64,000 bases of DNA from Naegleria gruberi (Eukaryota). The position numbers were made by a program, and so were the translations under genes. Below, one piece after another: positions 13,211 to 53,308 of the stretch (positions are counted from its first letter, which is position 1; every line of letters begins with the position of its first letter). Below the pieces are notes generated by a model. That model worked only from the letters and a program-made list of their open reading frames with translations, was not told the origin of the DNA and did no database searches. The stretch lies in NCBI GenBank assembly GCA_000004985.1, contig GG738853.1; one strand, 5' to 3'.

Positions 13211-13465
13211 ATGAGGAGATTATTAGCCAATCTTTATGGCTTGACCTTTATCGAACTTTTTTATCAAAAACTCTCAAATTCCAATCAGACCACTCTAGAC
13301 GCTCTACTGCACTCAATCTTAACCCAAATCCTTCAAATGTTGCACAGAGTCCTTAATTGCCTAAAAGTGTGGTCTCAGGTCGTTATTGATACAAGATACT
13401 TTGATAAACTTACACCTTTTATAATCGAAACCTTTCTCTCACCGTTCAACAGACACCAAGTTTAA
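13211..13465 (+). CDS. possible small helical protein (84 aa), unknown function
   Basis: The ATG at 13211 lies inside ORF 13163..13465 (MRRLLANLYGLTFIELFYQKL...). There is no recognisable family. It sits between the ALG11 start and tRNA-Pro and could be spurious. Confidence 0.25.
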   Translation: MRRLLANLYGLTFIELFYQKLSNSNQTTLDALLHSILTQILQMLHRVLNCLKVWSQVVIDTRYFDKLTPFIIETFLSPFNRHQV

Positions 13466-13487
13466 ATTTCGAAGGTTATTATCGTAA

Positions 13488-13559
13488 GGGACCATGGTCT
13501 AGTGGTATGATTCTCGCTTTGGGTGCGAGAGGCCGTGGGTTCGATTCCCACTGGTCCCC
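13488..13559 (+). tRNA. tRNA-Pro (UGG)
   Basis: 72 nt. The acceptor GGGACCA pairs with TGGTCCC. The D-arm GGTCTAGTGGTATGATT is nearly identical to human tRNA-Pro. The anticodon stem CTCGC/GCGAG carries loop TTTGGGT, and the T-arm is GTGGG-TTCGATT-CCCAC. Confidence 0.92.
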
Positions 13560-13716
13560 TTTCCTTTCATGTAACTTTGAAAATTCCAACTTTAATATGT
13601 TTTGCTTATTGGAATTTTGTATAAAATTCGTGTTATTGCCTTAGTTCAATAAATTTAGTTTAAGGTTTAAATTGAGTTTTTTGGGTACCTCCAATAAAAT
13701 TAATTGTAAAACAATC

Positions 13717-13782
13717 CTCCCATGCCGGGAATTGACCCTCCTGGGTGAAAGCCAGGTATCCTAGCCATTGGACTACACGGGA
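13717..13782 (-). pseudogene. tRNA-Glu (UUC)-like copy with a 6-nt deletion removing the 5' strand of the T-stem
   Basis: It is almost identical to the intact tRNA-Glu at 31313..31384. The exception is that AGGTCCGGGTTCAATT is reduced to AGGGTCAATT. The copy is 66 nt instead of 72, and the T-stem cannot form. Confidence 0.7.
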
Positions 13783-13991
13783 TCTCATTCACAATGAGAA
13801 TATTCTCATTTTATAGATAAATGCTGAAAACTCTCAGATTTTAGAAAACCTCGAGTTCCCCTCTCAAAATAAGACTCAAAAGCCTTAAAAGAATGGTTAT
13901 ACGATCTTGGTACCTGGTAATAAGTACCATCACTGATATTTATCGAAGTGATGAAAATTTGGGTGTACCCAAACGCCTTAATAAAACAAAA

Positions 13992-14109
13992 GACTACAGC
14001 ACCACAGGTTCCCAAGTTGTCTCCAACCTCAGTACTGATGTGGCTCGACGATGCTTAACTTCTCAAATCGGACGGGATGAGGTGCATTCATCGTGATATG
14101 GCCGTAGCC
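13992..14109 (-). rRNA. 5S ribosomal RNA
   Basis: The reverse complement reads GGCTACGGCCATATCACGATGAATGCACCTCATCCCGTCCGATTTGAGAAGTTAAGCATCG...AGTACTGAGGTTGGAGACAACTTGGGAACCTGTGGTGCTGTAGTC. The eukaryotic 5S blocks are conserved (ACGGCCATA, GAAGTTAAGC, AGTACT, TGGGAA). Helix I forms 9 bp between the termini, and a TTTT run follows immediately downstream. Confidence 0.88.
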
Positions 14110-14211
14110 ATTGATAATATCAAAATCTTAATACTGAATAAGAAACCGAATCTTGTACATTAAACATTAATAAGAATAGCGAACTGTTAATTTACGTAAG
14201 CAAAAAAGGAG

Positions 14212-14277
14212 TAGCAAATCTAGGTTTCGATCCTAGGACCTATGGGTTATGAGCCCATCGCGCTGCGCCAATTTGCT
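14212..14277 (-). pseudogene. initiator-type tRNA-Met (CAU)-like copy with truncated D-arm
   Basis: The reverse complement is AGCAAATTGGCGCAGCGCGATGGGCTCATAACCCATAGGTCCTAGGATCGAAACCTAGATTTGCTA. The acceptor, anticodon arm (CAT) and T-arm are intact, and the T-loop is the initiator-type ATCGAAA. Only 10 nt lie between position 9 and the anticodon stem, where about 17 are expected. The copy is 66 nt in total. Confidence 0.6.
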
Positions 14278-14860
14278 TTTCATTTACCTATTAAAATTTA
14301 GTCCAACTTTCAAGCGGTTTAACATGGCCTTTGAGACTTGATCATATTTCTGATTTGTAAGTGTTTCTATATCCATAGTTATCCAATTACATTATTCAAC
14401 ATTCTATCAATCCTCTCTAATCCTAAACAATCACTTCGAATATTAGTTGACTGCCAAGCTCGAATTTGATTCTTAGTCAACAAAATCAATTTGACCGGTT
14501 TAAAAAGTATTTTCCGGTCCTCTCTTCCACCAATCACTCTCTTTACTGACTCGAAAGACGACGTACCTCACAGTTCATACAGTCAAAGACTGTAGCGGGA
14601 CAGTCGCCATATTCCTGGCAGGCTTCCCGTCTAGTAAAATTAATTGAAAAGTTTCAAATTGTTGTAAATCACAACTACACTGTAAATTTGATTCTTTATT
14701 GTTTTAAAGTTGTGCATTTGAAACTCGTTCTTTACAAAGAAGGAATTCTAATATTAAGGTAAAACTAACTTTAAATAATATTTTCAAATACTATACACTT
14801 AATTAAATTTGAAAATATTATTTATATAAATAATAATGAAAAAAAATAAACAATTGGTAT

Positions 14861-16240
14861 TTACATATTTACAGTTTGTTGATTGACTCGTTGTTGAGCT
14901 TGAATTCTTGTTGAGAAACCGTTGAGTCCTCTCTGTTCAACTCTAAATGAAGTGGCACTACAAGCTAATTTCACACTTTCAAATACTTGTTCGCTTGAAA
15001 ATGAAAGTTTGTTGGAAGTATTTGCTGTTGAATTCCTCACAAGTAACTCAGCAACAAAACAAGATAGAAAAGTATCACCAGCTCCAGTTTCGTCCAAAAC
15101 TCTAACTGGTTTGTAGGAAGAGAAATATTTAACAATTGGTGTTGAACTATTTGATCTCAACCTAGGCAAAGACAATTGAATATTTTCTCCTTCGCAAGCA
15201 CAAACACAACCAGATGATCCCATTGTAACTGTTACAATTGGAAATCCATAATTCTTTTGAATATGGTATGCACATTCTTCAGGTGTCATTTCAGAGCTAT
15301 TTGGAATACATTTCTTTGCTTCATCATGATCTAATTTAATGACTGAAATAATCTTACTCAAAGTTTCCAACACTTCCTCTAAATATTCGATAGTATTATG
15401 AGAAACTTGACCACTTTCTGTATCAATTTTTCTCAAATAACCCTGAATATCAGTACAAACTAGAAAATCTGACTGAATTTCTTTAAAAACCTGATTTGTA
15501 AAAGCATTCACAAAGTGATGATCAAACTCTGCAGCTACTGGAACAAAGAGCAATGCTCTAACTTGATGTAATTCTCTAATCATTAAATTAATTGATTCAT
15601 CTTGTTTGAAAATACTTCCTCTATCTCTACAATTCAAGCTTCTACTGTTAGAAGCATTTTCAAGTGAATCAAATGGAGGATATAATAATTCATATTGAGT
15701 TAATTTAGATGATTGATCTTCCTCAACAAGAATCATGTCAAACATTTTCATTCTTTTTAAATGTTTGGCTTCTGACAGATCAGGTTGGAATGTCTTGTGA
15801 AATTGCTTATTAATTATTGGAGATTCACATGCAACCATTGTTATTGAATCATCTTCATTAGCAGCATGTTCCAACCCATTGAAAAACTGACTCAAAATCA
15901 TCACATCATGTTTTCCAATTTTAGTCAATATTTTAGGATGAATTTTAAAATGTTGATTATTAGAATAATACATTTGATTATCAATATTCTTCATATAATG
16001 TTGAAAGGCTAAACATCCAAACATGACTGATCCTCCGAGTGATTTGTTGACTATTTTTCTATATCCTTGATAATGAATTGAATTAGCATCTTCATCGGAA
16101 TTTAATTCTTGTTCAATGTGATGATGTTGTGATGATGAAATACCATTCGGAGTATGTTGGTGATGATCTTTCTCAAAGGTAATAATTGTATCTTGAGTGA
16201 TATTACCAACGAATATTACTTGTTTTTCATTCAACATCAT
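14861..16240 (-). CDS. PfkB-family (ribokinase-like) carbohydrate kinase
   Basis: 459-aa ORF. The N-terminus has VIFVGNITQDTII and the C-terminus has DETGAGDTFLSCFVAELL, the PfkB signature 2 (DTxGAGD). The substrate is not inferable. Confidence 0.72.
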   Translation of the reverse strand: MMLNEKQVIFVGNITQDTIITFEKDHHQHTPNGISSSQHHHIEQELNSDEDANSIHYQGYRKIVNKSLGGSVMFGCLAFQHYMKNIDNQMYYSNNQHFKIHPKILTKIGKHDVMILSQFFNGLEHAANEDDSITMVACESPIINKQFHKTFQPDLSEAKHLKRMKMFDMILVEEDQSSKLTQYELLYPPFDSLENASNSRSLNCRDRGSIFKQDESINLMIRELHQVRALLFVPVAAEFDHHFVNAFTNQVFKEIQSDFLVCTDIQGYLRKIDTESGQVSHNTIEYLEEVLETLSKIISVIKLDHDEAKKCIPNSSEMTPEECAYHIQKNYGFPIVTVTMGSSGCVCACEGENIQLSLPRLRSNSSTPIVKYFSSYKPVRVLDETGAGDTFLSCFVAELLVRNSTANTSNKLSFSSEQVFESVKLACSATSFRVEQRGLNGFSTRIQAQQRVNQQTVNM

Positions 16241-26127: not shown

Positions 26128-26352
26128 TATTGATTTAATGAGTTTGATTATACTTTGAAAATCCAGTGGAAGTTTCCGTTCAAGAAGATCAAAATTCTTG
26201 ACAGACCTTGTAGCTATTTCAAGTCGAATGTGATCGATACAGATGATAATTATCAATTTTATTAAGGAATGGTTGACAACTCTTTAACAGAAAATAAATA
26301 ATTAGTAAGCTAGGACCTTAGTGCTTCATATTTTTTGATCATCTTTCAAGAA

Positions 26353-26423
26353 GCATTAGTAGTGTAACGGTATCATACCAGCCTTCCAAGCTGGTGACCC
26401 GGGTTCGACTCCCGGCTAATGCA
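26353..26423 (+). tRNA. tRNA-Gly (UCC)
   Basis: 71 nt, GCATTAGTAGTGTAACGGTATCATACCAGCCTTCCAAGCTGGTGACCCGGGTTCGACTCCCGGCTAATGCA. The cloverleaf is canonical with anticodon loop CTTCCAA, and a TTTT run lies ~7 nt downstream. Confidence 0.92.
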
Positions 26424-27026
26424 ATTCAATTTTACAGTTGATAGAAATAAGTTTTTCTCTTTTTTCATTAATTAAAACCTTAAACAGCAGTTCAAAATGA
26501 AATTAATAAAGTGCAAATTGAATAAATTGCTATTATTTGATCCTTTGAAAATTGTAACTGCTCAGAACCACTTGTAGATTCCAAAGTTCATTAAATAATT
26601 AACAGAATTGACTTGTTGAGATTTCTTGTTCTCTAACCAACAAGAAATCTCAGCTACTTAATCTTCACAAAAGAAGAATAAGAAGAATAAGAAAATTATG
26701 AAGGAATTTGTGAGAAAAAACATGTAAACAAATGGTTTCATCTATTGACGAGGATGAGTATGAACAATATTCAATCAATTCTAAATTCTAAATATTTAAT
26801 AAATTGTTTAACGAAATGGATTGATTGTCTGTTGATGGTTTTTGGAGTGCATGAGAGGATTTACACCAGCTGAGCTCTATCTATCTCTTGGATTATTAAG
26901 GCGAGGAATCTACTAACCAATACCCTCAGAAATGGTTTCCAACAACTTGTAAAAAGCACTAATCAATCTTCAAGAAACGGTGCCATTCTTAAAGACATGT
27001 TGATATCAGCTAAACTAAAATTGAAT

Positions 27027-27097
27027 TGCATTAGCCGGGAGTCGAACCCGGGTCACCAGCTTGGAAGGCTGGTATGATACCGTTACACTACTAATGC
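27027..27097 (-). tRNA. tRNA-Gly (UCC), inverted duplicate
   Basis: This is the exact reverse complement of the 26353..26423 tRNA sequence. Confidence 0.92.
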
Positions 27098-28230
27098 TTC
27101 TTGTAAGATGATCAAAAAATATGAACCACCAAGTGGTAGCCATGATAATTTTCATGGAAACAATTATATTTTTTGGTAATTAATTCGATATCCAATACTT
27201 GAACATAGAAATGCGTATGGAACTAATAATTATAATTAATGTTTCAATAAAATATACTTGCTTCCGTATAACATGTCAGATTCCTTTGTTGTCACAGATC
27301 TAACATGTAAAGAAAGATACAAGCAGAGCTGAAAATTACCTTTTTTGTTGTTCTTTCAAAGCGTACAAATGAAATTGAAACTTCATGGGTGAAAAAATTT
27401 TACTGTTTTGCATTCATTCTTTGTTCTAACAGTAAAGATTCCAATAGGTAAATTAACATGTCAATATTGTTGCAATGTGTTGTTATCACCTGGCATAACA
27501 ATATCTGATATTAAATCCATTCTTATGACCATGTTCGTGATGTAAGCTTCAAATGTCATTGTACAAAATTAATCTTGTCATTCCAATTCCAACCATTGAA
27601 CCATATCATGTAAGTTTTAGTTGATTCACAACCTCCCAAAACGAAAGAAATCTCCAAATAATGTTCCATCGCCATTGACAAAAATAGAGCTATTTCGAAG
27701 AGCTTGAAAGATTACTCTCATACAGTTTCGAATAGGATTGCTGCACAGCAAAACTATTGCACAACAAACTTCTTTGCAAAAAAGTATGACTAATAAGCAC
27801 ACAACCAACAACTCTTCTGATTCTCAATTATTTTCCTCATCAATCCCACCTATTCACTTCATTCCACCTACTACTACTGTCATCATTAATACAACTAATG
27901 TAATAACAAACGCAGCGAATGTGAATAATAATAATATGGTAAATGTTGATTTGCTTCTTTCTAATGAGAGTGCCACCAGAAACATTGGTAATTTAGTTCC
28001 GCATGAATTAAATAATTTTTTTCCAATGTGATGATTAATTATGATGACCAATGGAGTCCAGCCTTGCCAATCACATCTGAAAGCCTTGAAGCATACAGAC
28101 AAATGTAAATGTGTATATTATAGGATGCGTGAGAATATCGTACGCATATGTTTCTGCTTTTTTGAATACTAATAATATTCATCAAATGTTAAATTTCTTC
28201 TCGAGATGATGGAAGATAAAACTCCCTTTG

Positions 28231-31222: not shown

Positions 31223-31312
31223 AATAGTTGACAAATTTTTCTCTAATTACCTGTAAAATAACAAGAGAATTAATAAAGTATTGAACTTTAACAAAATTCA
31301 ATGCAAAATATC

Positions 31313-31384
31313 CTCCCATGCCGGGAATTGAACCCGGACCTCCTGGGTGAAAGCCAGGTATCCTAGCCATTGGACTACACGGGA
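31313..31384 (-). tRNA. tRNA-Glu (UUC)
   Basis: The reverse complement is TCCCGTGTAGTCCAATGGCTAGGATACCTGGCTTTCACCCAGGAGGTCCGGGTTCAATTCCCGGCATGGGAG. The cloverleaf is canonical at 72 nt, and a TTTT run lies ~8 nt downstream. Confidence 0.92.
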
Positions 31385-31837
31385 TCTCATTCATGATGAA
31401 AACATTCCCATTTCATAGATAAAACACACAAATTGACCATAATCTGTTGGCACTTGCAGTGAACAACCACTCCCAGTTGCCATCAAGACTGGTTGTAGTT
31501 TCCACTTGATTTTAAATCTTGTTCTCTTAGTATTTACGTTGTACATCGGAGCCTTCATACACGCTCTTTATGTTATTTTAATGAAGGATTAAATAAATTG
31601 ATTTTATTAACATCTAGACTTGTCCCTAGTTGTAAAATGATATACGAGTTAGGCATAGGGCAAGGTTGTGAACATTGTTATGTCCGTGATGATTCGGTCC
31701 TTTTTATTAGATCCGTCATCAAAATAACCATGTCAATAACCATCTTTTTGACATGTTCAAGTTGTTGGTTGGTTACAAACACACACTCATTTAGTCAGTT
31801 TTCAGCAATCAATGAAAAACTATCATCTTTAAAAAAA

Positions 31838-37353: not shown

Positions 37354-40300
37354 ATGCAAACAAACGAAGGCTCGGGATCAGAAATGTCTTCTTCCTCATC
37401 ATCAACATCATCCGCTGCCCAACAACAACTGCAGCAACAAGAACAACAATATAACGAACAAGGTGAAGATTTTCCTTCTCTTTTTATTCGTGCTGCTTCC
37501 TTCTCCTCTTCATCAGAGTCTGACGACATAATTCCTAATCATCAACAACATACCACCCAACCAATCAAAACATATGAATCCAAGATTAATTATGAACATC
37601 AAATGGTAATTGATAATGAAGAATCGGAATTAAACTTATCGCCAAGGAGAAGTTCTAGAAAGAAAACGCCAAAAAAACAATTCAGTCCAACCCACAAAGA
37701 GCAATCTGATAAAAAAACTACACCTTCTAAAATACAGATTCCACCATCACCAATACAATCACAAGTTATTCAACATGATTATCCATTTGGAGAACCTTGG
37801 ACACAAGAAGAACTTTCAACTTTTTTAGAAGGGTTCAACAAGTATAAAACTGATTGGGGTATGATCAAACCACTTTTACCAAGTAGAAGTGTTTCTATGA
37901 TTAATTCACTTTACGAAACTCACAAAAGATTTATTGAAGCAGACTGTGGTTTAGATGTGAAAAAATTACAATTTCATGATATTCACTTGGATTACATATC
38001 ATTCAAACAACAACAAATGATTCCATCTCCTCAACCACAACAATTCCAACAACTTCCACCACAACCTATTCCACCAAGAGCAAAGAATTCTGCTAGAAAA
38101 CGTTTGCAAGATGAATTTGATGCCATCTCATCACCTAAGAAGAAAGGTTCACCAAGACAACGTTTTTCAAAAACCTCTAAAATAATACCTACCACCAGTA
38201 ATTCAAATACCCTAATTCCAAACTTTAAAAGAAAACAAAAAATAATAATGGAACAATTACCACTTGAAGTAATTGAATCATTCCAATCAGATTCAGATAC
38301 TGTAACATTAACAAGCTCTCAAAGTTCTCTTTCTGTTTCAAATACTGAAAGTCAACCAACTTCACCACCTCCACCACAATCCCTTCAATCTCCATTATCA
38401 CCAACAAGTGATCTTTCCTCTTTCACAGCAGCTATTGGAATGTTATCACCTGATAGTAAAAAGAATTATGAAAAGAACAAAATGTTACCAATCAAACTAA
38501 GAAAGAAGGGTACTCACGGTAATCCTTTGCTAAAATATATTCAAATTGCTAATGGAGATCAAAATGATACAGAATTGTTAGAATCAGCTCAAAATGCTGG
38601 AATGAAAATTGTAAAAATACTATCAAGAAAGAAAACAAGAACATTTTGCTCAAGTGAATGGTTTTACCCAACGATAGACTTTGGATTTTTCGAAAAGAAT
38701 GAATTTTTGGAATGCTTATCTTGCTTGGATGAACCATATAGAAATAGAAAATCCTTTAAAAAATCAGAACTTAAAGGTTTAAGAGCAGAAATGTGTAAAA
38801 AGTTTGGTAAACCAAGAAGATTTTCTCAAGCTTATTTAAAACAAGAAAGAGCCAAGCTGGAAATGAATAGAAGTTTTGCTAGAGAATACTATCAAAAGTT
38901 TAAACAAGTATATCAACTCTCTCAAGATAATCAACCATTTGTTCCTCCTCCAGTCATTATGGACTACCCACTTGTATCTGAACTTCAATTTATTGAAAGA
39001 TTGGCTGCTCCATTTAAAAAGAACGATCAAGTTTTGGTTTTAAATCCAGAAACCCAACATGTACAACTTGCTACAATAATGGATGATATTCCTCATTCAA
39101 AAACAGATTATAGAGTTAAATTTTTATACACTAAAGAGGAACGTATAGTCCAAGATACAGAAATTATGCAATTAGGAACTGTTTCAGTATTACCAGTTCA
39201 AAGAAGAGTACCAGAAATGTTCAGACCTGTCATTCAAGATGGAATTCTCCCACCACAAACTCCACCAAGAAAAAGCAATTATAGTTTCCTCTCAGGTGAT
39301 AATAATTTGAACAATAGTATGTTATCTGCATCCTCACCACATTCCCCATTCTTTTCGAATAATCATCCAATTTTCCAAAGTCCTCCGTCATCAGCCAATG
39401 ATATTCATGATAATGGGGCTTCATTACAAACCCCAACAAAGAAACAAAAACTGGATGGTGGGTTAATGTCACCAAGTAATATATTTGCAAGTCCAAATAT
39501 GGAGAGTCATGAATTTTCTAATCCATTATCCTCTCCACAACACGGATTTGCTCAAAATCAACCACCTCCAGTTATGGCTACTGGTATTGTTGATCTTTCA
39601 AATCCATCTCAAGAAGTTGTTAGAAATATTTCCAAATGCATATTTTTATTAAGAAAGAAACATGAACACATGGTATTATTTAAAAATTTGAATGAAAAGG
39701 CGAGACATGCCATGATGAAACACTCTTTAGCTATGGCCTCATCTAATACATCAGAAGAAGGATCAAGCTCTTCTGTGACTCCAATAATATTTCAAAAATC
39801 ATTCTGTATTGAATATACCAAATTGGTACTTGATTTGAGTAAGATTAATAATGAATTGGAAGTTTTATTACCTCAAGTTAGAAGCTACAGTTCAACTCCA
39901 AATTATGCAACAACTAATTATCCTATCCATAGTATTTTTTCTCAATCAATCACAAAACAATCAACTTTCCTTTTCCAAAAACAAACAAATGGACCAGCAA
40001 GACAACAAATGTGTCAAGATATATTTGAGTCAAATAGAAATCATGCTAAAGATATTGTAAATTGTGTAATGGCTCAATTATTAACACAACTTCCATCCAC
40101 TACCTCTGAAAATGGTAAAACACTTTCATCAAATGTTATACAAACATGTCATGGAAAGATTGGAGATTGTATTGCTTTACTATTGCATTTAAGAGCTTGT
40201 AGTATTAATCTTGGTATTTTAGAAAATAATGATATTGATCTAATGCTTGATGCTGGTTTAATGGCATTGAAAGAACCAAATCAATCTGATGAAATATCTC

Positions 40301-40356
40301 AATATATTACTTTCATCAAGGATACTTTCTTGAGGACAAGAAATGATGAACAATAA
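37354..40356 (+). CDS. LIN9: LIN-9 / ALWAYS EARLY family protein (SANT/Myb-like + DIRP domain; MuvB/DREAM core subunit)
   Basis: A SANT-like segment reads EPWTQEELSTFLEGFNKYKTDWGMI...MINSLYETHKRF. A DIRP-like segment reads SSEWFYPTIDFGFFEKNEFLECL...LKGLRAEMCKKFGKPRRFSQAYLKQERAKLE. The flanks are long and low-complexity. Confidence 0.72.
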   Translation: MQTNEGSGSEMSSSSSSTSSAAQQQLQQQEQQYNEQGEDFPSLFIRAASFSSSSESDDIIPNHQQHTTQPIKTYESKINYEHQMVIDNEESELNLSPRRSSRKKTPKKQFSPTHKEQSDKKTTPSKIQIPPSPIQSQVIQHDYPFGEPWTQEELSTFLEGFNKYKTDWGMIKPLLPSRSVSMINSLYETHKRFIEADCGLDVKKLQFHDIHLDYISFKQQQMIPSPQPQQFQQLPPQPIPPRAKNSARKRLQDEFDAISSPKKKGSPRQRFSKTSKIIPTTSNSNTLIPNFKRKQKIIMEQLPLEVIESFQSDSDTVTLTSSQSSLSVSNTESQPTSPPPPQSLQSPLSPTSDLSSFTAAIGMLSPDSKKNYEKNKMLPIKLRKKGTHGNPLLKYIQIANGDQNDTELLESAQNAGMKIVKILSRKKTRTFCSSEWFYPTIDFGFFEKNEFLECLSCLDEPYRNRKSFKKSELKGLRAEMCKKFGKPRRFSQAYLKQERAKLEMNRSFAREYYQKFKQVYQLSQDNQPFVPPPVIMDYPLVSELQFIERLAAPFKKNDQVLVLNPETQHVQLATIMDDIPHSKTDYRVKFLYTKEERIVQDTEIMQLGTVSVLPVQRRVPEMFRPVIQDGILPPQTPPRKSNYSFLSGDNNLNNSMLSASSPHSPFFSNNHPIFQSPPSSANDIHDNGASLQTPTKKQKLDGGLMSPSNIFASPNMESHEFSNPLSSPQHGFAQNQPPPVMATGIVDLSNPSQEVVRNISKCIFLLRKKHEHMVLFKNLNEKARHAMMKHSLAMASSNTSEEGSSSSVTPIIFQKSFCIEYTKLVLDLSKINNELEVLLPQVRSYSSTPNYATTNYPIHSIFSQSITKQSTFLFQKQTNGPARQQMCQDIFESNRNHAKDIVNCVMAQLLTQLPSTTSENGKTLSSNVIQTCHGKIGDCIALLLHLRACSINLGILENNDIDLMLDAGLMALKEPNQSDEISQYITFIKDTFLRTRNDEQ

Positions 40357-46880: not shown

Positions 46881-48453
46881 ATGAAAATATTTAAACTTTT
46901 AATTGTATTATTATTTTTGATTTCATCAATAGTACTTGTTGCTAATTGTTCAGATGCTACTTCAACTGCTGGTAGTGAAAATATAGAAATTAAAAGTAAA
47001 TTAAATGATCAACAAAATACATATACACAAGATTCATTATTGGGAAATGGTATTTTAACTGGAATTAAAAAGGATGGAACAATTGATAGTATTATTGCTC
47101 AATATAAACAATTAGATAATGAATATATTAAATCTAATAATATTGATAATGGTGATGAAAAGAAGGAAGATATTACAATTGAAAATCCATCAGTAACAAC
47201 TCCTACAACACCTACTACTACACCAACAACAACAACACCACCTATTGATATTACAACACCATCATTACCTAGTACTGTTAATAATCCAATTGATGAAAAA
47301 CCAAAAGATATTGAATTGCCACCATTGGAAGAAAAGAAATCATCAACTGAATCATCAAAACCAACAGTTGATACTCCAACAACAACAACAAAAACAACAA
47401 CAACTACTACTACAACTCCATTACAAGATAAACCTGGAAAGGAAGAAGAATCAGCTGCTGAACAAAAATTGAGAGAAGAAATTAGTAAACTTAAGGCTAA
47501 ACTTGAAGAAATTCAAAAGAAGGAACAAGAAAAGTCAACACCAACAGCACCAATTGAAAAACAAAATAAGCCTATTACAATTGAAAATCCATCACCAGTA
47601 ATAACTCCTACAACAACAACAACTCAACCAAAGGCTGAAAAATCAATTGAAACTACTAAACCATCTACAACTACTACTACTACACCTTCTAAACCATCTA
47701 CAACTACAACTACAACTATTCCATCTAAAATTGATAATAAGAGTAGTACTCCAAGTAAACAGACAACATCATCTACTACTAGTAAAACATCGACAACAAC
47801 AACAACTCCTAATACTACTACTAACAAATCAACAACAACAACTACACCAACAAACAAACAATCATCATCTACTACTAGTAGCAGTTCATCATCAACAAGT
47901 AAATCATCTTCCAAATCAAAGAATAAGTCTACAACAAGTAGTACAACAAGTAAGAATAAGACTAAACCATCAAGTACTTCTCCAACTACCAACAACAAAC
48001 AATCATCATCTGCTAGTACTACTTCTACAACTCCGACAACAAAAACTCCAACAACAACAACAACTCCAAGTAACAAACAATCATACTACCACTGGTTCTA
48101 CTACTACTACTTCCAATACTAATAAACCAAGTAGTACTACTTCTACAACAACAACTCCAAGTAACAAACAACCAATTCAACCTAATAAGAATACAGTTGT
48201 ACGTCCAACACTTAAAGAAGAAGAAGAAAAGAATAATGGAATATCACAAGTATTTATATTTGGATTTGGTATAATTCTATTTTTAGTAATTATTGCAATT
48301 TTCTTTTTATTTATGAGAAAGAGAAAACCAACATTAAAATATGAACCAGTTTCACAATATGAAAATGATTCAATTCAAAATAATGATAATTCCATTGTTG
48401 AATTAGATGATAAACATAAAGTAATTAATGAACCTGTTGATTTGGAAATTTAA
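46881..48453 (+). CDS. mucin-like Thr/Ser/Pro-rich type I membrane protein; apparent +1 frame change near 48084
   Basis: A signal peptide (MKIFKLLIVLLFLISSIVLVANC) is followed by long T/S/P tracts. The Thr-rich reading switches from the frame of ORF 46788..48122 to that of ORF 47647..48453 around CAATCAT|ACTACC. The latter ORF supplies a TM segment (VFIFGFGIILFLVIIAIFFLF) and a cytoplasmic tail. Confidence 0.6.
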
Positions 48454-48846
48454 ATAAATTCAAATATTATATATTACAATTATTATGTTATGTGTGTGTA
48501 TTTATTATTATTATAAAGTATTATTAATGGAGTGTGTGTATATTACAGTTAATCTAATATCAATGATTCAATCAAATAATTACATAAAAAAATTAACAAT
48601 AAAAAAAATGTCCAATCAACATGATTCCGATTCCAATTCATCATCATCATCATCTAAACAACAATTACATCATGATTCAAATAATTCAAATAATTCAAAT
48701 AATTCAAATAATATAATACAAATAATAATAATTCAAATATAAAAAAAACAAGATTTGAACGTGAAATTGAATCATTAACAAAACAAACGATTGAATTAGA
48801 AAATGTAGAAAATAAATTAAAACAATTATTTCCACAAGAATATGCA

Positions 48847-49299
48847 ATGAATAATTCAAACAAATTTGAAAATGATCAAATATTAAGACATCAAGATCCA
48901 ACTGTTAAATATTTTACTTTAATTGGAGGTTCAATTGGTGCAATTTCAAGTGCTTATTTACTTTATCAACCAATTGATAAATTTGGAAGATTATTTTTTA
49001 AACAATTTACTTCAAATTATAGAATTAGATATTATTTTACAATTCCAACTTTTACTTTTTTAACAATTACTATAAGTGGTATTTTATCAGGTTTATATCC
49101 ATATGGTACACATAGAATTATGAAATTTTTAAATAATCAATTTAATATTGATGTTAATGATAATTTTGATGATTTTTTAATTTCTGGTTTACCTTTAACT
49201 AAAAATGATTTACTTTCTCATTTAAATAAATTTAATAATAATAATAATAATAAATTAATTATTAATAATTTAATTATAATAAAATTAAAATTAAATTAA
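48847..49299 (+). CDS. small membrane protein, unknown function; may extend 5' to ATG 48608 across a frame change at 48712..48742
   Basis: ORF 48847..49299 has two or three hydrophobic segments. Its frame stays open upstream to 48712 (YNTNNNNSNIKKTRFEREIESLTKQTIELENVENKLKQLFPQEYAM). There it abuts ORF 48485..48742 (MSNQHDSDSNSSS... from 48608) in another frame. Confidence 0.45.
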   Translation: MNNSNKFENDQILRHQDPTVKYFTLIGGSIGAISSAYLLYQPIDKFGRLFFKQFTSNYRIRYYFTIPTFTFLTITISGILSGLYPYGTHRIMKFLNNQFNIDVNDNFDDFLISGLPLTKNDLLSHLNKFNNNNNNKLIINNLIIIKLKLN

Positions 49300-49319
49300 T
49301 ATTATGTTTAAAATTATTT

Positions 49320-50420
49320 TTATTTATTTAAATTAATATATTTAACATTTAATTCAATACCATTATTACTTTGATTTCTAAAAATGGAATTAAAATTATC
49401 ATTTTTTAAATTATTTGAATAATCAAATGCAATTCCCATACTTTCAGTACTAAAAGTATAACCAAATTCTAATTGATCATAATCAGTAACTTTACATGAT
49501 AAACATCCAATTTTTCTTTCATTTGTAAAATTAATTAAATTACCATAAATAGAAAATAAAGCTTGTTCCATTGGAATTTCAAATATTTTATCAACTAGAT
49601 AATTTGACATTTGATTTAACATGATATCTTCACCAATTCCACTAAAATTACTTGCAATTTGTATAAAATTATCATTATCACTATCTTGTACATATTTAGT
49701 ATCTGAATAACATCCACTTCCATATATAGAAGCTTCACCAATTCTACCTGAATATTTTAATGATATTCCACCACTACTAACACCTGATGATAATATTCCA
49801 TTATAATATATTATACATCCAACTGTATCATATNNNNNNNNNNNNNNNNNNNNNNNNNNNNNNNNNNNNNNNNNNNNNNNNNNATTATTTAAATTATTTA
49901 TATTATTATTACCATTTATATTATTATTATTAAAATTATAAATAGATGAAAAACATAAACATGCATCACATTCAACTAAACCATTTCTATTTAAATTACT
50001 ACCATATCCAGCATTTGTAAATGGTGAATTTTCTAAAATAGAAATAGCATATGAACATGCATTTAAACATTTTTTTATTTTTTCATTTTCATCATTTTTA
50101 TTTATAAATTTACTATTATTTAAATTATTTAAATTATTAAAATATTGATTAATAGTTTGTTGTATAGATTGTTTCATTAAATTTCTATATAAATTATTAT
50201 TATTAATAGAATGATATCCTGCTCCACAATGAACTGCAATAAAATATACATCATCTTCATCTTCATCATCTTTTAAATCATTATTTAAATCATTATTTAA
50301 ATTATTATATTCTATTATTTCATTATTATTATTATTATCTTGTTGTTGTTGAATAGATAAAGATGATGATGATGAATTATTCCGATCAACATGTTGATGA
50401 TGATTAACTTGTTCACTCAT
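49320..50420 (-). CDS. TASP1: taspase-1 / asparaginase-2 family Ntn-hydrolase (interrupted by an assembly gap)
   Basis: FIAVHCGAGYHS, NAGYGSNLNRNGLVECDA and YDTVGCIIYYNGILSSGVSSGGISLKYSGRIGEASIYGSGCY match the family. This includes the DTVG autoprocessing/nucleophile Thr motif. The likely start is MSEQVNHHQH at 50420. N-rich insertions are present. Confidence 0.75.
   Translation of the reverse strand: MSEQVNHHQHVDRNNSSSSSLSIQQQQDNNNNNEIIEYNNLNNDLNNDLKDDEDEDDVYFIAVHCGAGYHSINNNNLYRNLMKQSIQQTINQYFNNLNNLNNSKFINKNDENEKIKKCLNACSYAISILENSPFTNAGYGSNLNRNGLVECDACLCFSSIYNFNNNNINGNNNINNLNNXXXXXXXXXXXXXXXXXYDTVGCIIYYNGILSSGVSSGGISLKYSGRIGEASIYGSGCYSDTKYVQDSDNDNFIQIASNFSGIGEDIMLNQMSNYLVDKIFEIPMEQALFSIYGNLINFTNERKIGCLSCKVTDYDQLEFGYTFSTESMGIAFDYSNNLKNDNFNSIFRNQSNNGIELNVKYINLNK
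49834..49883. other. assembly gap (50 N)
   Basis: A run of exactly 50 n characters lies inside the taspase-like CDS. Confidence 0.99.
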
Positions 50421-50582
50421 TTTTTTAAAGTTTATAATAGAAAAAAACAAATTGTAACACACAACTATTTCAAATTTAATTTTATTACATTTTCAATACA
50501 TACAATACTTTTAATACATATGATTCAGATTACAAAATATATAAATAAATATATAAACACATAATAATAAATATATAAAATA

Positions 50583-51836
50583 TTATTGTAAAATATTATA
50601 CATTAATAATTCTAAAATATTTGTAATTAAAATAACATGTTTACAACTTTGTATATTTTTAGAATCACATACTAATAATGGTAATTGATAATTAATAGCT
50701 AATTCAATAGAATTATTTAATAAATTTAAATGATTATTATTTAAATATTTAATTAAATTATTTTCATTTTCATTATTAAAAGTATTTAATAACATTATTT
50801 CCATTACATCTAATTGTTCTTCATCATCTTTAAATTTACTACCAATTAATGAATTTGATTTTACTTTTAATCCATTTATAGATTCATTTGTATCTAATTT
50901 CCATATTGGTATATTTAATAAATTATTTAAATTTTCATTAAATAAATAAATTACATAAGTTTTACCTGAATATAAATTTGCTGAAAATATTGATTTTCTT
51001 GAATGTGGTGATTTTATACCACCATGATCTTGAAATGATATTTGTATATATTTACTATTATTATTATTATTATTATTACTATTTATAGAATTATTTAAAT
51101 TATTAAATTCAATTAAATTATTATTATTATTAATAAATAATTCAAATGATTTCATTACAATTCTAAAATCAATAGTTTGATCATATTTATTAAAATCTTG
51201 ATCAATTTTATCACAAATATTATTAACAAATTTAGATTTACCTGTTTTAGAATTACCTTTTACATGAATTCTAAAAAATAAATTAGTTAAATCATCTGAT
51301 CTATTATTAAATTGTGTTTTTGTAATTTCTTTAAATTTAAAATAATATTTTGTAATTGTTTGACATAAAATTCTTTCATTTTTTAAATTATTTAATTTTA
51401 AATTTTTAATTTTATCAGAATTAAATGGAAAATATAATATTCCAATTTCATTTTTTAATAAATATTTCCATATTTGATCACATGGTGTTTTTATTTCATT
51501 ATTTAAATTATTATTTAAAATAGATTGACCACAAATATATTCATACCAATCTTTATTTAACATTGATAATAATGTTAATTCATAAGTATTTAAAAATGAT
51601 ATTATTTCAAATGTCATTTCATGTGTTAAATCAAAATTATTATTAAATATAAATGAAATTGTTTTAATTGATGTACTTGTTGTTGTAGTTGTTGTACTTG
51701 TAGTTGTAGTAGTAGTTGTATTATTATCATTATTATCATTGTTATCATTGTTAATAGTAGTTGTATTATTATCAATTAAATGATGATCGGAAGGATCTTC
51801 TTGTTGATCAATAATAATATGATTATTGTTGATCAT
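50583..51836 (-). CDS. F-box-like protein with a divergent P-loop (small-GTPase-like) region
   Basis: The N-terminus has N/T-rich tracts. An F-box-like segment follows (LTHEMTFEIISFLNTYELTLLSMLNKDWYEYI), then a Walker-A-like KGNSKTGKSKF and a possible DxxG (QDHGG). The coding sequence is very AT-rich. Confidence 0.45.
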   Translation of the reverse strand: MINNNHIIIDQQEDPSDHHLIDNNTTTINNDNNDNNDNNTTTTTTTSTTTTTTSTSIKTISFIFNNNFDLTHEMTFEIISFLNTYELTLLSMLNKDWYEYICGQSILNNNLNNEIKTPCDQIWKYLLKNEIGILYFPFNSDKIKNLKLNNLKNERILCQTITKYYFKFKEITKTQFNNRSDDLTNLFFRIHVKGNSKTGKSKFVNNICDKIDQDFNKYDQTIDFRIVMKSFELFINNNNNLIEFNNLNNSINSNNNNNNNSKYIQISFQDHGGIKSPHSRKSIFSANLYSGKTYVIYLFNENLNNLLNIPIWKLDTNESINGLKVKSNSLIGSKFKDDEEQLDVMEIMLLNTFNNENENNLIKYLNNNHLNLLNNSIELAINYQLPLLVCDSKNIQSCKHVILITNILELLMYNILQ

Positions 51837-53308
51837 TTTTTTTTAATTTGATAGAGAAATGTGTGGATTGTATGAGTAGAAGAAATTGTACAAAGAATAA
51901 TAAGAACATGGAACAATTACATGTTCAGTGTTCAACATATCCTCAAAAGCATTTAAAGGAAAACAGCTGTTTTGTGACATCAATTGCTGGTGGTTTCTTG
52001 CATGGATTCGTATATAAGTGGCTCTTATGAGTCCTCAATCCATGATTCTGCTTATTGTTCCAACTGAACCAAAGAATAAGGATGTTAATCATTCAGTTGT
52101 AAATTACTGAAAAGTTTTCTGAATTGGAAGAACATTAAAAGGTCAAACATTTAGAAGATCAAATTCAAATTGAGAAAAAGATAAGAACAAGAAGGATAGA
52201 CAAGAGGAAGCCAGACATAAGAAGGATGTAGAAGACAGAAAGAAGAAGGAAGAGGAAGATCGTTTGAGAAAAGCCCAATTAGAAGAGGATGATTAGAAGA
52301 TGAAAGAAAGAGAAAAGCCTAAATTGAAGAAGAACGTAGGAGAAAGGCAGATTTGGAAGAGGAAAACAAGAAGAGCAACCTGCTCAAGAGGAAGAGGAAA
52401 AGAAAAAGGTTAAATGAGTGAGGTCATGAAAGATCTCCTTTCCAAGTCTGCAACAGAAGTACTCGTTATCAATCATTTGAAGGAATTAACGTCGATTACA
52501 AGGCCTCATTCATCATCATTTTTTGGAAAATACTTTAATAGCTTGGTTTTGTAAACTTTGGAGAGGATCGCAATTTTGGCGTCGATTTGATGTAAATGGA
52601 ACCACAAGGATTGAGCACAAATATTCGTTATGGTAAACAAAATCATTATGTTATCAAACAAACTAGCCGTTCCATTTTAAAATGTAGATTTCGTCTAGAT
52701 GGAACCACCAAAGGTGAGTCAACACGTGCCGATTTCACAACATATTACAATCGTTCCAAGCTGTTGGCCAATCGACAAATTAGCACATAATTTCATAATA
52801 GCGCAATATGATTATTTCACCTACCATTTGGACTACTCATAATTTATCCTTATAATAGAGTTACTTATCTTAACCACTTTGATTTTGTATTCTACTCTTC
52901 TGTTAAAAATATTTGATGATCCTTGGATTCTGTTACTGGTAGTACACTTACACTAAATACTTACGTTGTCTGTCCTGCATGTCTGTTCTGCGACCATTCT
53001 ATGAAGTTTCAAAATGAATTGTGTAAATAATATGCCAATGTCAGAAAAGCAAAGCAACAATTCGATATGTAAAGTTTAAAACAAAATTGAACGCATATGT
53101 ATTCAGAGATATGGTATCTTTAACAATCTTCAGTAGTTATTTTGTTTTACACACTTACACAATTTTGTAGATTCAGTAATGCATTTCTACTCACAAATGA
53201 GAACTGTACTGATTAACGAAGCTGACCCTCCAAACCAATAAAGAAAAATTGAATATTTTGTTTATTTTATTCCGAAAGTTCTAAGTCAATGGTTTTCCAT
53301 TTGGCCAA

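What the first reader, a model, noticed from the sequence alone, without database searches (positions are those of the whole stretch)
13488..14277. Compact Pol III cluster: 5S rRNA embedded among tRNA genes, two of which carry precise internal deletions
Four Pol III-type genes lie within 790 bp. They are tRNA-Pro(UGG), a tRNA-Glu(UUC) copy, a 118-nt 5S rRNA and an initiator-type tRNA-Met copy. The tRNA-Glu copy is missing 6 nt, which removes the 5' strand of the T-stem and affects the B-box region. The 5S gene has good helix I pairing and a T4 terminator. The tRNA-Met copy has a D-arm 7 nt too short, missing the 3' half of the D-arm, while every other arm is intact. The 5S gene here is dispersed and tRNA-linked rather than part of an rDNA unit. 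The two damaged tRNAs each lose one structural arm cleanly. They may be pseudogenes, assembly errors, or tRNA-derived elements with another role.
Basis: partly seen in the sequence, partly recalled or inferred. Interest (0 to 1): 0.55.

Follow-up and report, generated by a model that had tools for sequence, protein, structure and literature searches.

The report
Naegleria 5S gene with damaged tRNAs
This is an ordinary small cluster of RNA polymerase III genes in the amoeba Naegleria gruberi, made up of a good 5S rRNA gene, a good tRNA-Pro gene and two tRNA gene copies that each carry a small crippling internal deletion and are most likely young pseudogenes.

Summary
The window is Naegleria gruberi nuclear DNA. 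They are tRNA-Pro(UGG), 62 bits and intact; a tRNA-Glu(UUC) copy, 39 bits; a 5S rRNA, 105 bits; and an initiator tRNA-Met copy, 53 bits.

Two details need correcting:
- The Glu lesion is two events, 5 nt + 1 nt or 6 nt + one substitution. It removes the 5' T-stem strand.
- The Met copy is 6 nt short, not 7. It has lost the D-loop, and both D-stem halves remain.

A dispersed 5S gene is normal here. Published data list 279 scattered 5S genes and 924 tDNAs in N. gruberi, whose large rDNA sits on a plasmid.

The Glu copy arose by DNA-level duplication. Its flanks have diverged about 23% from those of the intact paralogue, while the body is 66/66 identical outside the lesion. The damage is therefore recent.

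Related loci show no conserved cluster and no tRNA linkage (L001-L003, L018, L019, L008). No initiator with a shortened D-loop was found in the metagenomes.

Best reading: young tRNA pseudogenes in a Pol III gene cluster. An assembly artefact could not be tested. Interest is low.

The parts
13488..13559 (+). tRNA-Pro(UGG), intact, 72 nt
   Evidence: ARAGORN. Rfam RF00005 62.4 bits. A-box 10/11 and B-box 11/11. There is only TTTCCTTT directly downstream, and the first T4 run is about 41 nt further on.
13717..13782 (-). tRNA-Glu(UUC) copy, 66 nt. The 5' strand of the T-stem is lost through a 5+1 nt lesion. It is a probable young pseudogene.
   Evidence: RF00005 38.9 bits, with three T-stem pairs marked broken. 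ARAGORN does not call it. It is 66/66 identical to the intact gene at 31313-31384 outside the lesion. A-box 9/11 and B-box 9/11.
13714..13821 (-). Duplication unit shared with the intact tRNA-Glu locus (31310-31423). It is the tRNA body plus about 40 nt of 5' flank, which contains TATAAAA near -30 and an 18-nt palindrome at 13793-13810. MAFFT extends the 3' flank similarity to about 13689.
   Evidence: blastn 88.6% over 114 nt. MAFFT alignment. The 5' flank differs at 8 of 41 positions, and the next 41 nt upstream are unrelated.
13708..13711 (-). T4 run 6-9 nt after the tRNA-Glu copy, a candidate Pol III terminator
   Evidence: Downstream sequence gattgTTTTac. The intact paralogue has gataTTTTgc at the same place.
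13991..14109 (-). 5S rRNA gene, full length
   Evidence: RF00001 105.4 bits, model 1-120, no broken pairs. It has 1 mismatch to a Naegleria-like environmental 5S in L008.
13983..13991 (-). TTTT-G-TTTT run at the 3' end of the 5S gene, a candidate Pol III terminator
   Evidence: Read from the sequence.
14212..14277 (-). Initiator-type tRNA-Met(CAU) copy, 66 nt. The D-loop is reduced from 7 nt to 1 nt and all stems are intact. It is a probable young pseudogene.
   Evidence: RF00005 53.3 bits, with a 6-nt model deletion in the D-loop. ARAGORN calls it with the anticodon at position 27. Initiator marks can be read from the sequence: A1:U72, GGG/CCC in the anticodon stem, and T-loop AUCGAAA. A-box 9/11 and B-box 10/11.
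14202..14207 (-). T6 run 5-10 nt after the tRNA-Met copy and 93 nt before the 5S start, a candidate Pol III terminator separating the two genes
   Evidence: Downstream sequence ctccTTTTTTgc.
31313..31384 (-). Intact tRNA-Glu(UUC) paralogue used as the reference for the damaged copy
   Evidence: ARAGORN. RF00005 67 bits.

Best explanation
This intergenic stretch of the Naegleria gruberi nuclear genome holds four independent RNA polymerase III transcription units.

The 5S rRNA gene and tRNA-Pro(UGG) are ordinary working genes. The 5S is one of the several hundred dispersed chromosomal 5S copies this organism needs, because its large rRNA genes sit on a plasmid.

The two same-strand neighbours of the 5S are copies of tRNA-Glu(UUC) and initiator tRNA-Met that were once functional. 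Each has recently suffered a small deletion. The Met copy lost its D-loop. The Glu copy lost the 5' T-stem strand and one T-loop base.

Both lesions remove one partner of the D-loop/T-loop 'elbow' that every cytosolic tRNA needs for folding, processing and use on the ribosome. The products are therefore expected to be non-functional, which makes these young pseudogenes in a tDNA family that evolves by DNA-level duplication and loss.

Shown here: the gene identities, the lesions, the paralogous flank homology, the intact stems, and the residual A/B boxes and T-runs. Inferred: that the lesions are real in the organism, that they abolish tRNA function, and that the copies may still bind TFIIIC and be transcribed into unstable RNA.
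For: Organism: a window ORF is 100% identical to an N. gruberi protein.

Lesions:
- The Glu copy matches the intact paralogue at 66 of 66 positions outside the lesion.
- In the Met copy all four stems are perfectly paired, and re-inserting 6 nt restores a canonical 72-nt cloverleaf.

Duplication with flanks:
- The Glu pair is 88.6% identical over 114 nt, and the similarity stops abruptly beyond that.
- The Gly pair is 99% identical over 110 nt.
- As a control, the tRNA-Val genes next to the PfkB orthologues of N. lovaniensis and N. fowleri have identical bodies and unrelated flanks. Flank similarity therefore marks paralogy, not a shared promoter.

Timing: the flanks have diverged about 23%. 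If the body had been neutral since duplication, the chance of no substitution in 66 sites is 3e-4 or less. The inactivation is therefore recent.

Background: 924 tDNAs (PMC2888827) and 279 dispersed 5S genes (PMC3369914 Table S1) fit a large, fast-turning-over Pol III gene complement.

Lack of conservation:
- There is no tRNA/5S cluster at the regions fetched around the PfkB and DIRP orthologues of N. lovaniensis and N. fowleri.
- No initiator tRNA with a D-loop of 1-4 nt was found in 241 million metagenome records.

Microhomology: an AG..AG repeat flanks the inferred 6-nt Met deletion, and GG..GG flanks the 5-nt Glu deletion. This fits replication slippage. It is read from the sequence, and for Met it assumes the canonical AGUGGAA D-loop.
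Against: - Both damaged copies are otherwise pristine. They are also exactly the two same-strand neighbours of the 5S, while the four other tRNAs in the window are intact. Given 2 damaged of 6, that placement has a 1 in 15 chance. This is a mild hint of either an artefact or a shared cause.
- No read-level or second-assembly check was possible, because N. gruberi DNA is not in the contig collection.
- No intact N. gruberi initiator tRNA was available for comparison, so the Met deletion is inferred from the Rfam model and the yeast initiator sequence.
- Ongoing gene conversion or continuing selection could also keep the bodies identical.
Confidence: 0.7

Rival explanations
1. The deletions are not in the organism, or not in all its haplotypes. 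They would be sequencing, cloning or assembly artefacts at two strong hairpins, or one allele of a polyploid strain, and both tRNA genes would really be intact.
For: Both lesions lie inside G+C-rich hairpins, the D-arm GCGC/GCGC and the T-arm CCGGG/CCCGG. Everything else in both genes is perfect. The Glu lesion looks like two nearby errors. The scaffold contains at least one gap, at 49834-49883.
Against: Losses of 5-6 nt are large for base-calling compression. From my own knowledge, the reference was built from multi-fold Sanger shotgun data from independent clones, which makes a consensus error at two sites 430 bp apart unlikely. The other four tRNAs in the window, which have equally strong hairpins, are intact.
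Confidence: 0.12
2. The two damaged tRNAs are retained tRNA-like elements. Their A and B boxes still recruit TFIIIC and TFIIIB, and so help or insulate transcription of the adjacent 5S gene. Trypanosomatid snRNA genes use neighbouring tRNA or tRNA-like boxes in this way. It would matter in an organism reported to lack TFIIIA.
For: - Both copies keep A-box 9/11 and B-box 9-10/11 matches and T-run terminators.
- They are the immediate same-strand neighbours of the 5S, at 102 nt upstream and 208 nt downstream.
- Naegleria belongs to Discoba, as do the trypanosomatids in which tRNA-like boxes drive snRNA genes (PMC4950102).
- PMC3369914 reports no TFIIIA in N. gruberi.
- The bodies carry no substitutions despite diverged flanks.
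Against: - The geometry differs from the trypanosomatid rule of a divergent tRNA with box A about 104 bp from the gene. Here the tRNA-Met copy is co-oriented, and its box A is about 160 nt from the 5S start.
- The close Naegleria-like 5S locus L008 has no tRNA and no B-box match of 10/11 or better anywhere in its 1964 nt.
- With 279 dispersed 5S genes, tRNA linkage at this copy is not needed to explain 5S expression. PMC3369914 reports an internal control region and a TATA box in N. gruberi 5S genes.
- The cluster is absent from the regions fetched around the PfkB and DIRP orthologues in sister species.
Confidence: 0.08
3. The 66-nt RNAs are functional miniaturised tRNAs or tRNA-derived small RNAs. 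They would have a reduced D-arm or T-arm, like the arm-reduced tRNAs of animal mitochondria.
For: Minimum-free-energy folds of both keep a four-arm cloverleaf with a mini-arm. Met has a 3-bp D-stem with a 3-nt loop. Glu has a 3-bp T-stem with a 6-nt loop. ARAGORN accepts the Met copy.
Against: From established knowledge, no cytosolic tRNA lacking the G18G19 / T-loop elbow contacts is known to work. An intact tRNA-Glu(UUC) with the same sequence lies 17.5 kb away. No initiator with a shortened D-loop was seen in the metagenome scan. ARAGORN rejects the Glu copy.
Confidence: 0.03
4. The tRNA-Met copy and the 5S form a dicistronic Pol III unit, as in Yarrowia lipolytica. The 5S would be transcribed from the tRNA promoter and then cut out.
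For: The tRNA-like gene lies 5' of the 5S on the same strand. There is a precedent in Yarrowia (PMC2566860).
Against: A T6 run lies 5 nt after the tRNA copy, and the spacer is 102 nt, against 4-7 nt with no terminator in Yarrowia. The tRNA part lacks the elbow normally needed for RNase P/Z processing.
Confidence: 0.02

Closest known systems
Dispersed chromosomal 5S rRNA genes of Naegleria gruberi (279 putative copies, PMC3369914 Table S1)
   Same: A 5S gene of about 118-119 nt that lies outside any rDNA unit. It has an A+T-rich upstream region and a T-run terminator, and it stands alone rather than in a tandem array.
   Different: This copy has tRNA-type genes within 102 and 208 nt. The other close Naegleria-like copy seen here (L008) has none. 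It also carries T instead of A at position 24, in loop B.
tRNA pseudogenes and birth-and-death evolution of eukaryotic tDNA families (PMC2888827)
   Same: Paralogous tDNA copies duplicated together with short flanks. Some copies are inactivated by small lesions. The tDNA count is high (924) and the genes are locally clustered.
   Different: Both damaged copies carry a single localised lesion and no point substitutions, so they are unusually young. They also sit on either side of a 5S gene.
Trypanosomatid snRNA/7SL genes driven by the A and B boxes of a neighbouring tRNA or tRNA-like element (PMC4950102)
   Same: A Discoba lineage, a Pol III gene with a degenerate tRNA-like element about 100 nt upstream, and A and B boxes retained.
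   Different: In trypanosomatids the companion is divergently oriented, with box A about 104 bp from the gene, and the dependent genes are snRNAs. Here the element is co-oriented, has its own terminator, lies next to a 5S gene, and no dependence is shown.
Yarrowia lipolytica dicistronic tRNA-5S rRNA genes (PMC2566860)
   Same: Dispersed 5S genes, some lying directly 3' of a tRNA gene on the same strand. This is a possible TFIIIA-independent route.
   Different: The Yarrowia spacer is 4-7 nt with no terminator, and the leader tRNA is functional. Here the spacer is 102 nt with a T6 run, and the tRNA is damaged.

Membership tests
5S rRNA (Rfam RF00001) | Full-length match to the covariance model above the gathering score, with all helices paired | tested here: met
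   105.4 bits against a gathering score of 38, model positions 1-120, no non-canonical pairs flagged.
5S rRNA (Rfam RF00001) | Pol III terminator (T-run) at the 3' end | tested here: met
   TTTT-G-TTTT at 13983-13991.
5S rRNA (Rfam RF00001) | Transcribed and incorporated into ribosomes | not testable with these tools
   No expression data are available. There is 1 mismatch to an environmental Naegleria-like 5S.
Functional cytosolic tRNA (Rfam RF00005; canonical cloverleaf) | Four paired stems, including a 5-bp T-stem with a 7-nt T-loop | tested here: not met
   In the Glu copy the 5' T-stem strand is absent and three T-stem pairs are marked broken, giving 38.9 bits against 67 for the intact paralogue. 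It is met for tRNA-Pro.
Functional cytosolic tRNA (Rfam RF00005; canonical cloverleaf) | D-loop of 7-11 nt carrying G18 G19 for the elbow contact with the T-loop | tested here: not met
   In the Met copy the D-loop is reduced to 1 nt between GCGC and GCGC, and cmscan shows *[6]* against *[0]*.
Eukaryotic initiator tRNA-Met | CAU anticodon, A1:U72, three G:C pairs at the foot of the anticodon stem, and A54/A60 in the T-loop (AUCGAAA) | tested here: met
   Read directly from 14212-14277 (-): AGCAAAU...AUUUGCUA, AUGGG-CUCAUAA-CCCAU, CUAGG-AUCGAAA-CCUAG.
tRNA pseudogene arising from a DNA-level paralogue | Homology to a functional paralogue that extends into the flanks, plus a disabling lesion | tested here: met
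   For Glu there is a 114-nt homology including about 40 nt of 5' flank. It was not testable for Met because no intact N. gruberi copy was available.
tRNA pseudogene arising from a DNA-level paralogue | The lesion is really present in the genome, not an assembly error | not testable with these tools
   The N. gruberi genome and its reads are absent from the searchable collections.
Yarrowia-type dicistronic tRNA-5S gene | The 5S starts 4-7 nt after tRNA nucleotide 73, with no intervening T-run | tested here: not met
   The spacer is 102 nt, with a T6 run at 14202-14207.
Trypanosomatid-type companion tRNA promoter | A divergently oriented tRNA or tRNA-like element with box A about 104 bp from the dependent gene | tested here: not met
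   The Met copy is on the same strand as the 5S, and its box A (14260-14270) is about 150-160 nt from the 5S start.
Trypanosomatid-type companion tRNA promoter | Transcription of the dependent gene requires the companion's A and B boxes | not testable with these tools
   This needs mutagenesis or reporter assays. Indirectly, the Naegleria-like 5S locus L008 has no companion.

The most novel reading that the evidence does not exclude
In Naegleria, which is reported to lack a recognisable TFIIIA, some dispersed 5S genes may be flanked by deliberately disabled tRNA genes. Their surviving A and B boxes would act as TFIIIC landing pads that boost or insulate 5S transcription. That would be a co-oriented heterolobosean counterpart of the tRNA-like promoter elements of trypanosomatid snRNA genes.
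Probability: 0.06. Interest if true: 0.6.

Novelty: new member of a known kind. Interest (0 to 1): 0.15.

Why it matters
It matters little beyond annotation. It shows that two of the six tRNA-like calls in this window should be flagged as probable pseudogenes. It also shows that N. gruberi tDNA families spread by DNA-level duplication together with short flanks, and that its dispersed 5S genes can land in Pol III gene clusters. It would only say something new about Pol III promoter evolution in Discoba if the damaged copies recurred next to many 5S genes genome-wide.

Tried and rejected
- Independent assembly check. Exact-protein look-ups of both flanking genes (PfkB-like, ALG11-like) found no N. 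gruberi contig, so the deletions could not be cross-checked.
- Synteny. I fetched the regions around the PfkB and DIRP orthologues in N. lovaniensis and N. fowleri (L001-L003, L018-L020). Rfam scans of L001-L003, L018 and L019 found only a tRNA-Val next to PfkB, with no 5S and no cluster. The locus is not conserved, and the comparison gives no information on the lesions.
- Metagenome scan for any initiator tRNA with a D-loop of 1-4 nt: 0 hits.
- Viral-contig scan for the Glu deletion junction: 0 hits.
- Metagenome scan with a 26-nt 5S segment: 14 contigs. Only one is Naegleria-like (L008), and none carries a tRNA.
- Scans of GTDB genomes and viral contigs for a Naegleria-specific 5S segment: 0 hits.
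- Low-threshold Rfam scans of the region and of the whole window found no further degenerate tRNA, 5S or snRNA genes.
- Repeat and bacterial-type promoter/terminator scans of 13300-14500 gave only chance-level matches.
- Dicistronic tRNA-5S and trypanosomatid companion-tRNA models were considered and rejected on geometry.
- Retroposition of mature tRNA was rejected for the Glu copy. Its homology runs about 40 nt upstream of the gene and there is no poly-A.
- The Cell 2010 genome paper is not held.

Full report
**What is there**

The window is nuclear DNA of the amoeboflagellate Naegleria gruberi. A 1000-aa ORF at 37354-40356 and the 459-aa ORF at 14861-16240 are each 100% identical to NCBI N. 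gruberi proteins on a 695,587-bp scaffold. The window has 29% G+C and is gene-dense.

| Gene | Coordinates | Strand | Rfam score |
|---|---|---|---|
| tRNA-Pro(UGG) | 13488-13559 | + | 62.4 bits |
| tRNA-Glu(UUC)-like copy | 13717-13782 | - | 38.9 bits, T-stem pairs flagged broken, not called by ARAGORN |
| Full-length 5S rRNA | 13991-14109 | - | 105.4 bits, E 4e-22 |
| Initiator-type tRNA-Met copy | 14212-14277 | - | 53.3 bits |

A permissive Rfam scan of the whole window adds nothing further. The rest of the window holds four intact tRNAs: tRNA-Pro, an inverted pair of tRNA-Gly(UCC), and tRNA-Glu(UUC) at 31313-31384.

**The lesions**

*Glu copy.* Against the intact tRNA-Glu 17.5 kb away, the copy is identical at all 66 retained positions. 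The segment AGGAGG-TCCGG-G-T-TCAATT has become AGGAGGGTCAATT.
- That requires 5 nt + 1 nt, or 6 nt + one substitution. It is not one clean 6-nt cut.
- It removes the 5' strand of the T-stem and one T-loop base.

*Met copy.* It carries every initiator hallmark: A1:U72, GGG/CCC in the anticodon stem, and T-loop AUCGAAA. All four stems are perfectly paired.
- Between the two GCGC halves of the D-stem only one base remains. cmscan reports a 6-position deletion.
- Re-inserting GTGGAA gives a textbook 72-nt cloverleaf.

Each lesion removes one partner of the D-loop/T-loop elbow. Minimum-free-energy folds still draw a cloverleaf with a mini-arm. From established tRNA biology, a cytosolic tRNA without G18/G19 or without a T-arm is not expected to be processed or used.

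**Promoter and terminator signals**

- All four genes are followed by T-runs. The Met copy has T6 at 5 nt. The 5S ends in T4-G-T4. The Glu copy has T4 at 6 nt. tRNA-Pro has only TTTCCTTT, with a T4 run 41 nt further on.
- The damaged copies still match the A-box at 9/11 and the B-box at 9/11 (Glu) and 10/11 (Met).
- They may therefore still bind TFIIIC and be transcribed. This is inference only.

**Context in this organism**

- Naegleria keeps its 18S/5.8S/28S genes on an extrachromosomal plasmid (PMC12482156).
- A published survey lists 279 putative 5S genes in N. gruberi. Its Table S1 shows them scattered over many scaffolds. The same survey reports an internal control region and a TATA box, but no recognisable TFIIIA (PMC3369914).
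- Another survey counts 924 tDNAs (PMC2888827).
- A dispersed 5S is therefore the norm here, not an oddity.
- With those counts and a genome of about 41 Mb (my own knowledge), four Pol III genes within 790 bp is not a chance event. About 0.0025 such clusters are expected genome-wide. Local clustering of Pol III genes is, however, a common eukaryotic pattern.

**How the copies arose**

- The damaged Glu copy and the intact gene share 114 nt at 88.6% identity. This covers the body, about 40 nt of 5' flank and about 25 nt of 3' flank, and the similarity then stops abruptly.
- The two tRNA-Gly genes share 110 nt at 99% identity.
- As a control, the tRNA-Val genes next to the PfkB orthologues of N. 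lovaniensis and N. fowleri have identical bodies but unrelated flanks. Flank similarity therefore marks DNA-level paralogous duplication, not a conserved promoter.
- The Glu flanks have diverged by about 23%, while the body has no substitution. If the copy had drifted neutrally since duplication, the chance of that is 3e-4 or less.
- The copy was therefore under selection, or gene conversion, until recently, and the lesion is young. The pristine stems of the Met copy tell the same story.

**Comparative searches**

- The cluster is absent from the regions fetched around the PfkB and DIRP orthologues of N. lovaniensis and N. fowleri.
- A scan of 241 million metagenome records for any initiator tRNA with a D-loop of 1-4 nt found nothing.
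- A 5S-segment scan found 14 contigs. One (L008) has a 5S with a single mismatch to this one and is taken to be Naegleria. The others belong to other protists. None has a tRNA nearby, and L008 has no B-box match of 10/11 or better.
- Linkage of 5S to tRNA or tRNA-like elements is therefore not a general Naegleria rule, as far as this small sample shows.

**Known systems considered**

- Yarrowia dicistronic tRNA-5S genes have 4-7 nt spacers and no terminator (PMC2566860). Here the spacer is 102 nt and contains a T6 run, so this locus is not a member.
- Trypanosomatid snRNA genes use a divergent tRNA or tRNA-like element with box A about 104 bp away (PMC4950102). Here the element is co-oriented and its box A is about 160 nt away, so this locus is not a member.
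- That resemblance is the only route to something new. Both damaged copies are exactly the two same-strand neighbours of the 5S, which has a 1 in 15 chance given two damaged of six. Both also keep their boxes. I rate that reading at about 6%.

**What could not be done**

The artefact or single-haplotype explanation therefore remains open, at about 12%.

**Verdict**

This is a real and correctly located cluster of four Pol III genes. The 5S and tRNA-Pro are ordinary. The two short tRNAs are most likely recent pseudogenes, produced in a fast-turning-over tDNA complement. Novelty and interest are both low.

Noticed in passing
window 26325-26434 (+) and 27016-27125 (-): Two identical tRNA-Gly(UCC) genes form an inverted pair. 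Their homology is 99% over 110 nt and includes 28 nt of 5' flank and 11 nt of 3' flank, which points to a very recent inverted duplication about 600 bp apart.
   Followed up: partly
window 13783-13823 and 31385-31425 (- strand): The tRNA-Glu paralogues share a family-specific 5' flank of about 40 nt, with a TATA-like box (TATAAAA or TATGAAA) near -30. The damaged copy alone has a perfect 18-nt palindrome, AATGAGAATATTCTCATT, at 13793-13810.
   Followed up: partly
L001 9735-9808 (N. lovaniensis) and L003 1469-1542 (N. fowleri): A tRNA-Val(AAC) gene lies just upstream of the PfkB-like gene in both species but not in N. gruberi. The tRNA bodies are 74/74 identical and the flanks show no similarity.
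   Followed up: partly
window 14086 (position 24 of the 5S, loop B): This 5S copy has T where the Naegleria-like contig L008 and 11 of the 12 full-length environmental 5S copies compared have A (L014 also has T). It may be a minor variant copy.
   Followed up: no
L004-L007, L009-L013, L015, L016 (VFQM/VFQO metagenome contigs): An unidentified protist with about 35% G+C carries many solitary, dispersed 5S genes. They show 26-30 mismatches to Naegleria, and each sits on its own contig with unrelated flanks and no tRNA.
   Followed up: no
window 48000-52000, gap 49834-49883: A 50-N scaffold gap lies inside a very A+T-rich stretch (G+C 18-20%).
   Followed up: no
window 17645-40356 versus L018 4439-13765: In N. 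lovaniensis and N. fowleri the TCP-1 chaperonin and DIRP genes are about 4 kb apart (TCP1-ELP6-PFK-DIRP). In N. gruberi they are about 18 kb apart, and the extra interval carries three tRNA genes. The local gene order has been rearranged or expanded.
   Followed up: no
window 13560-13603: tRNA-Pro(UGG) has no run of four or more T until about 41 nt downstream, with only TTTCCTTT directly after the gene. Every other Pol III gene in the window has a T4-T6 run within 10 nt.
   Followed up: no
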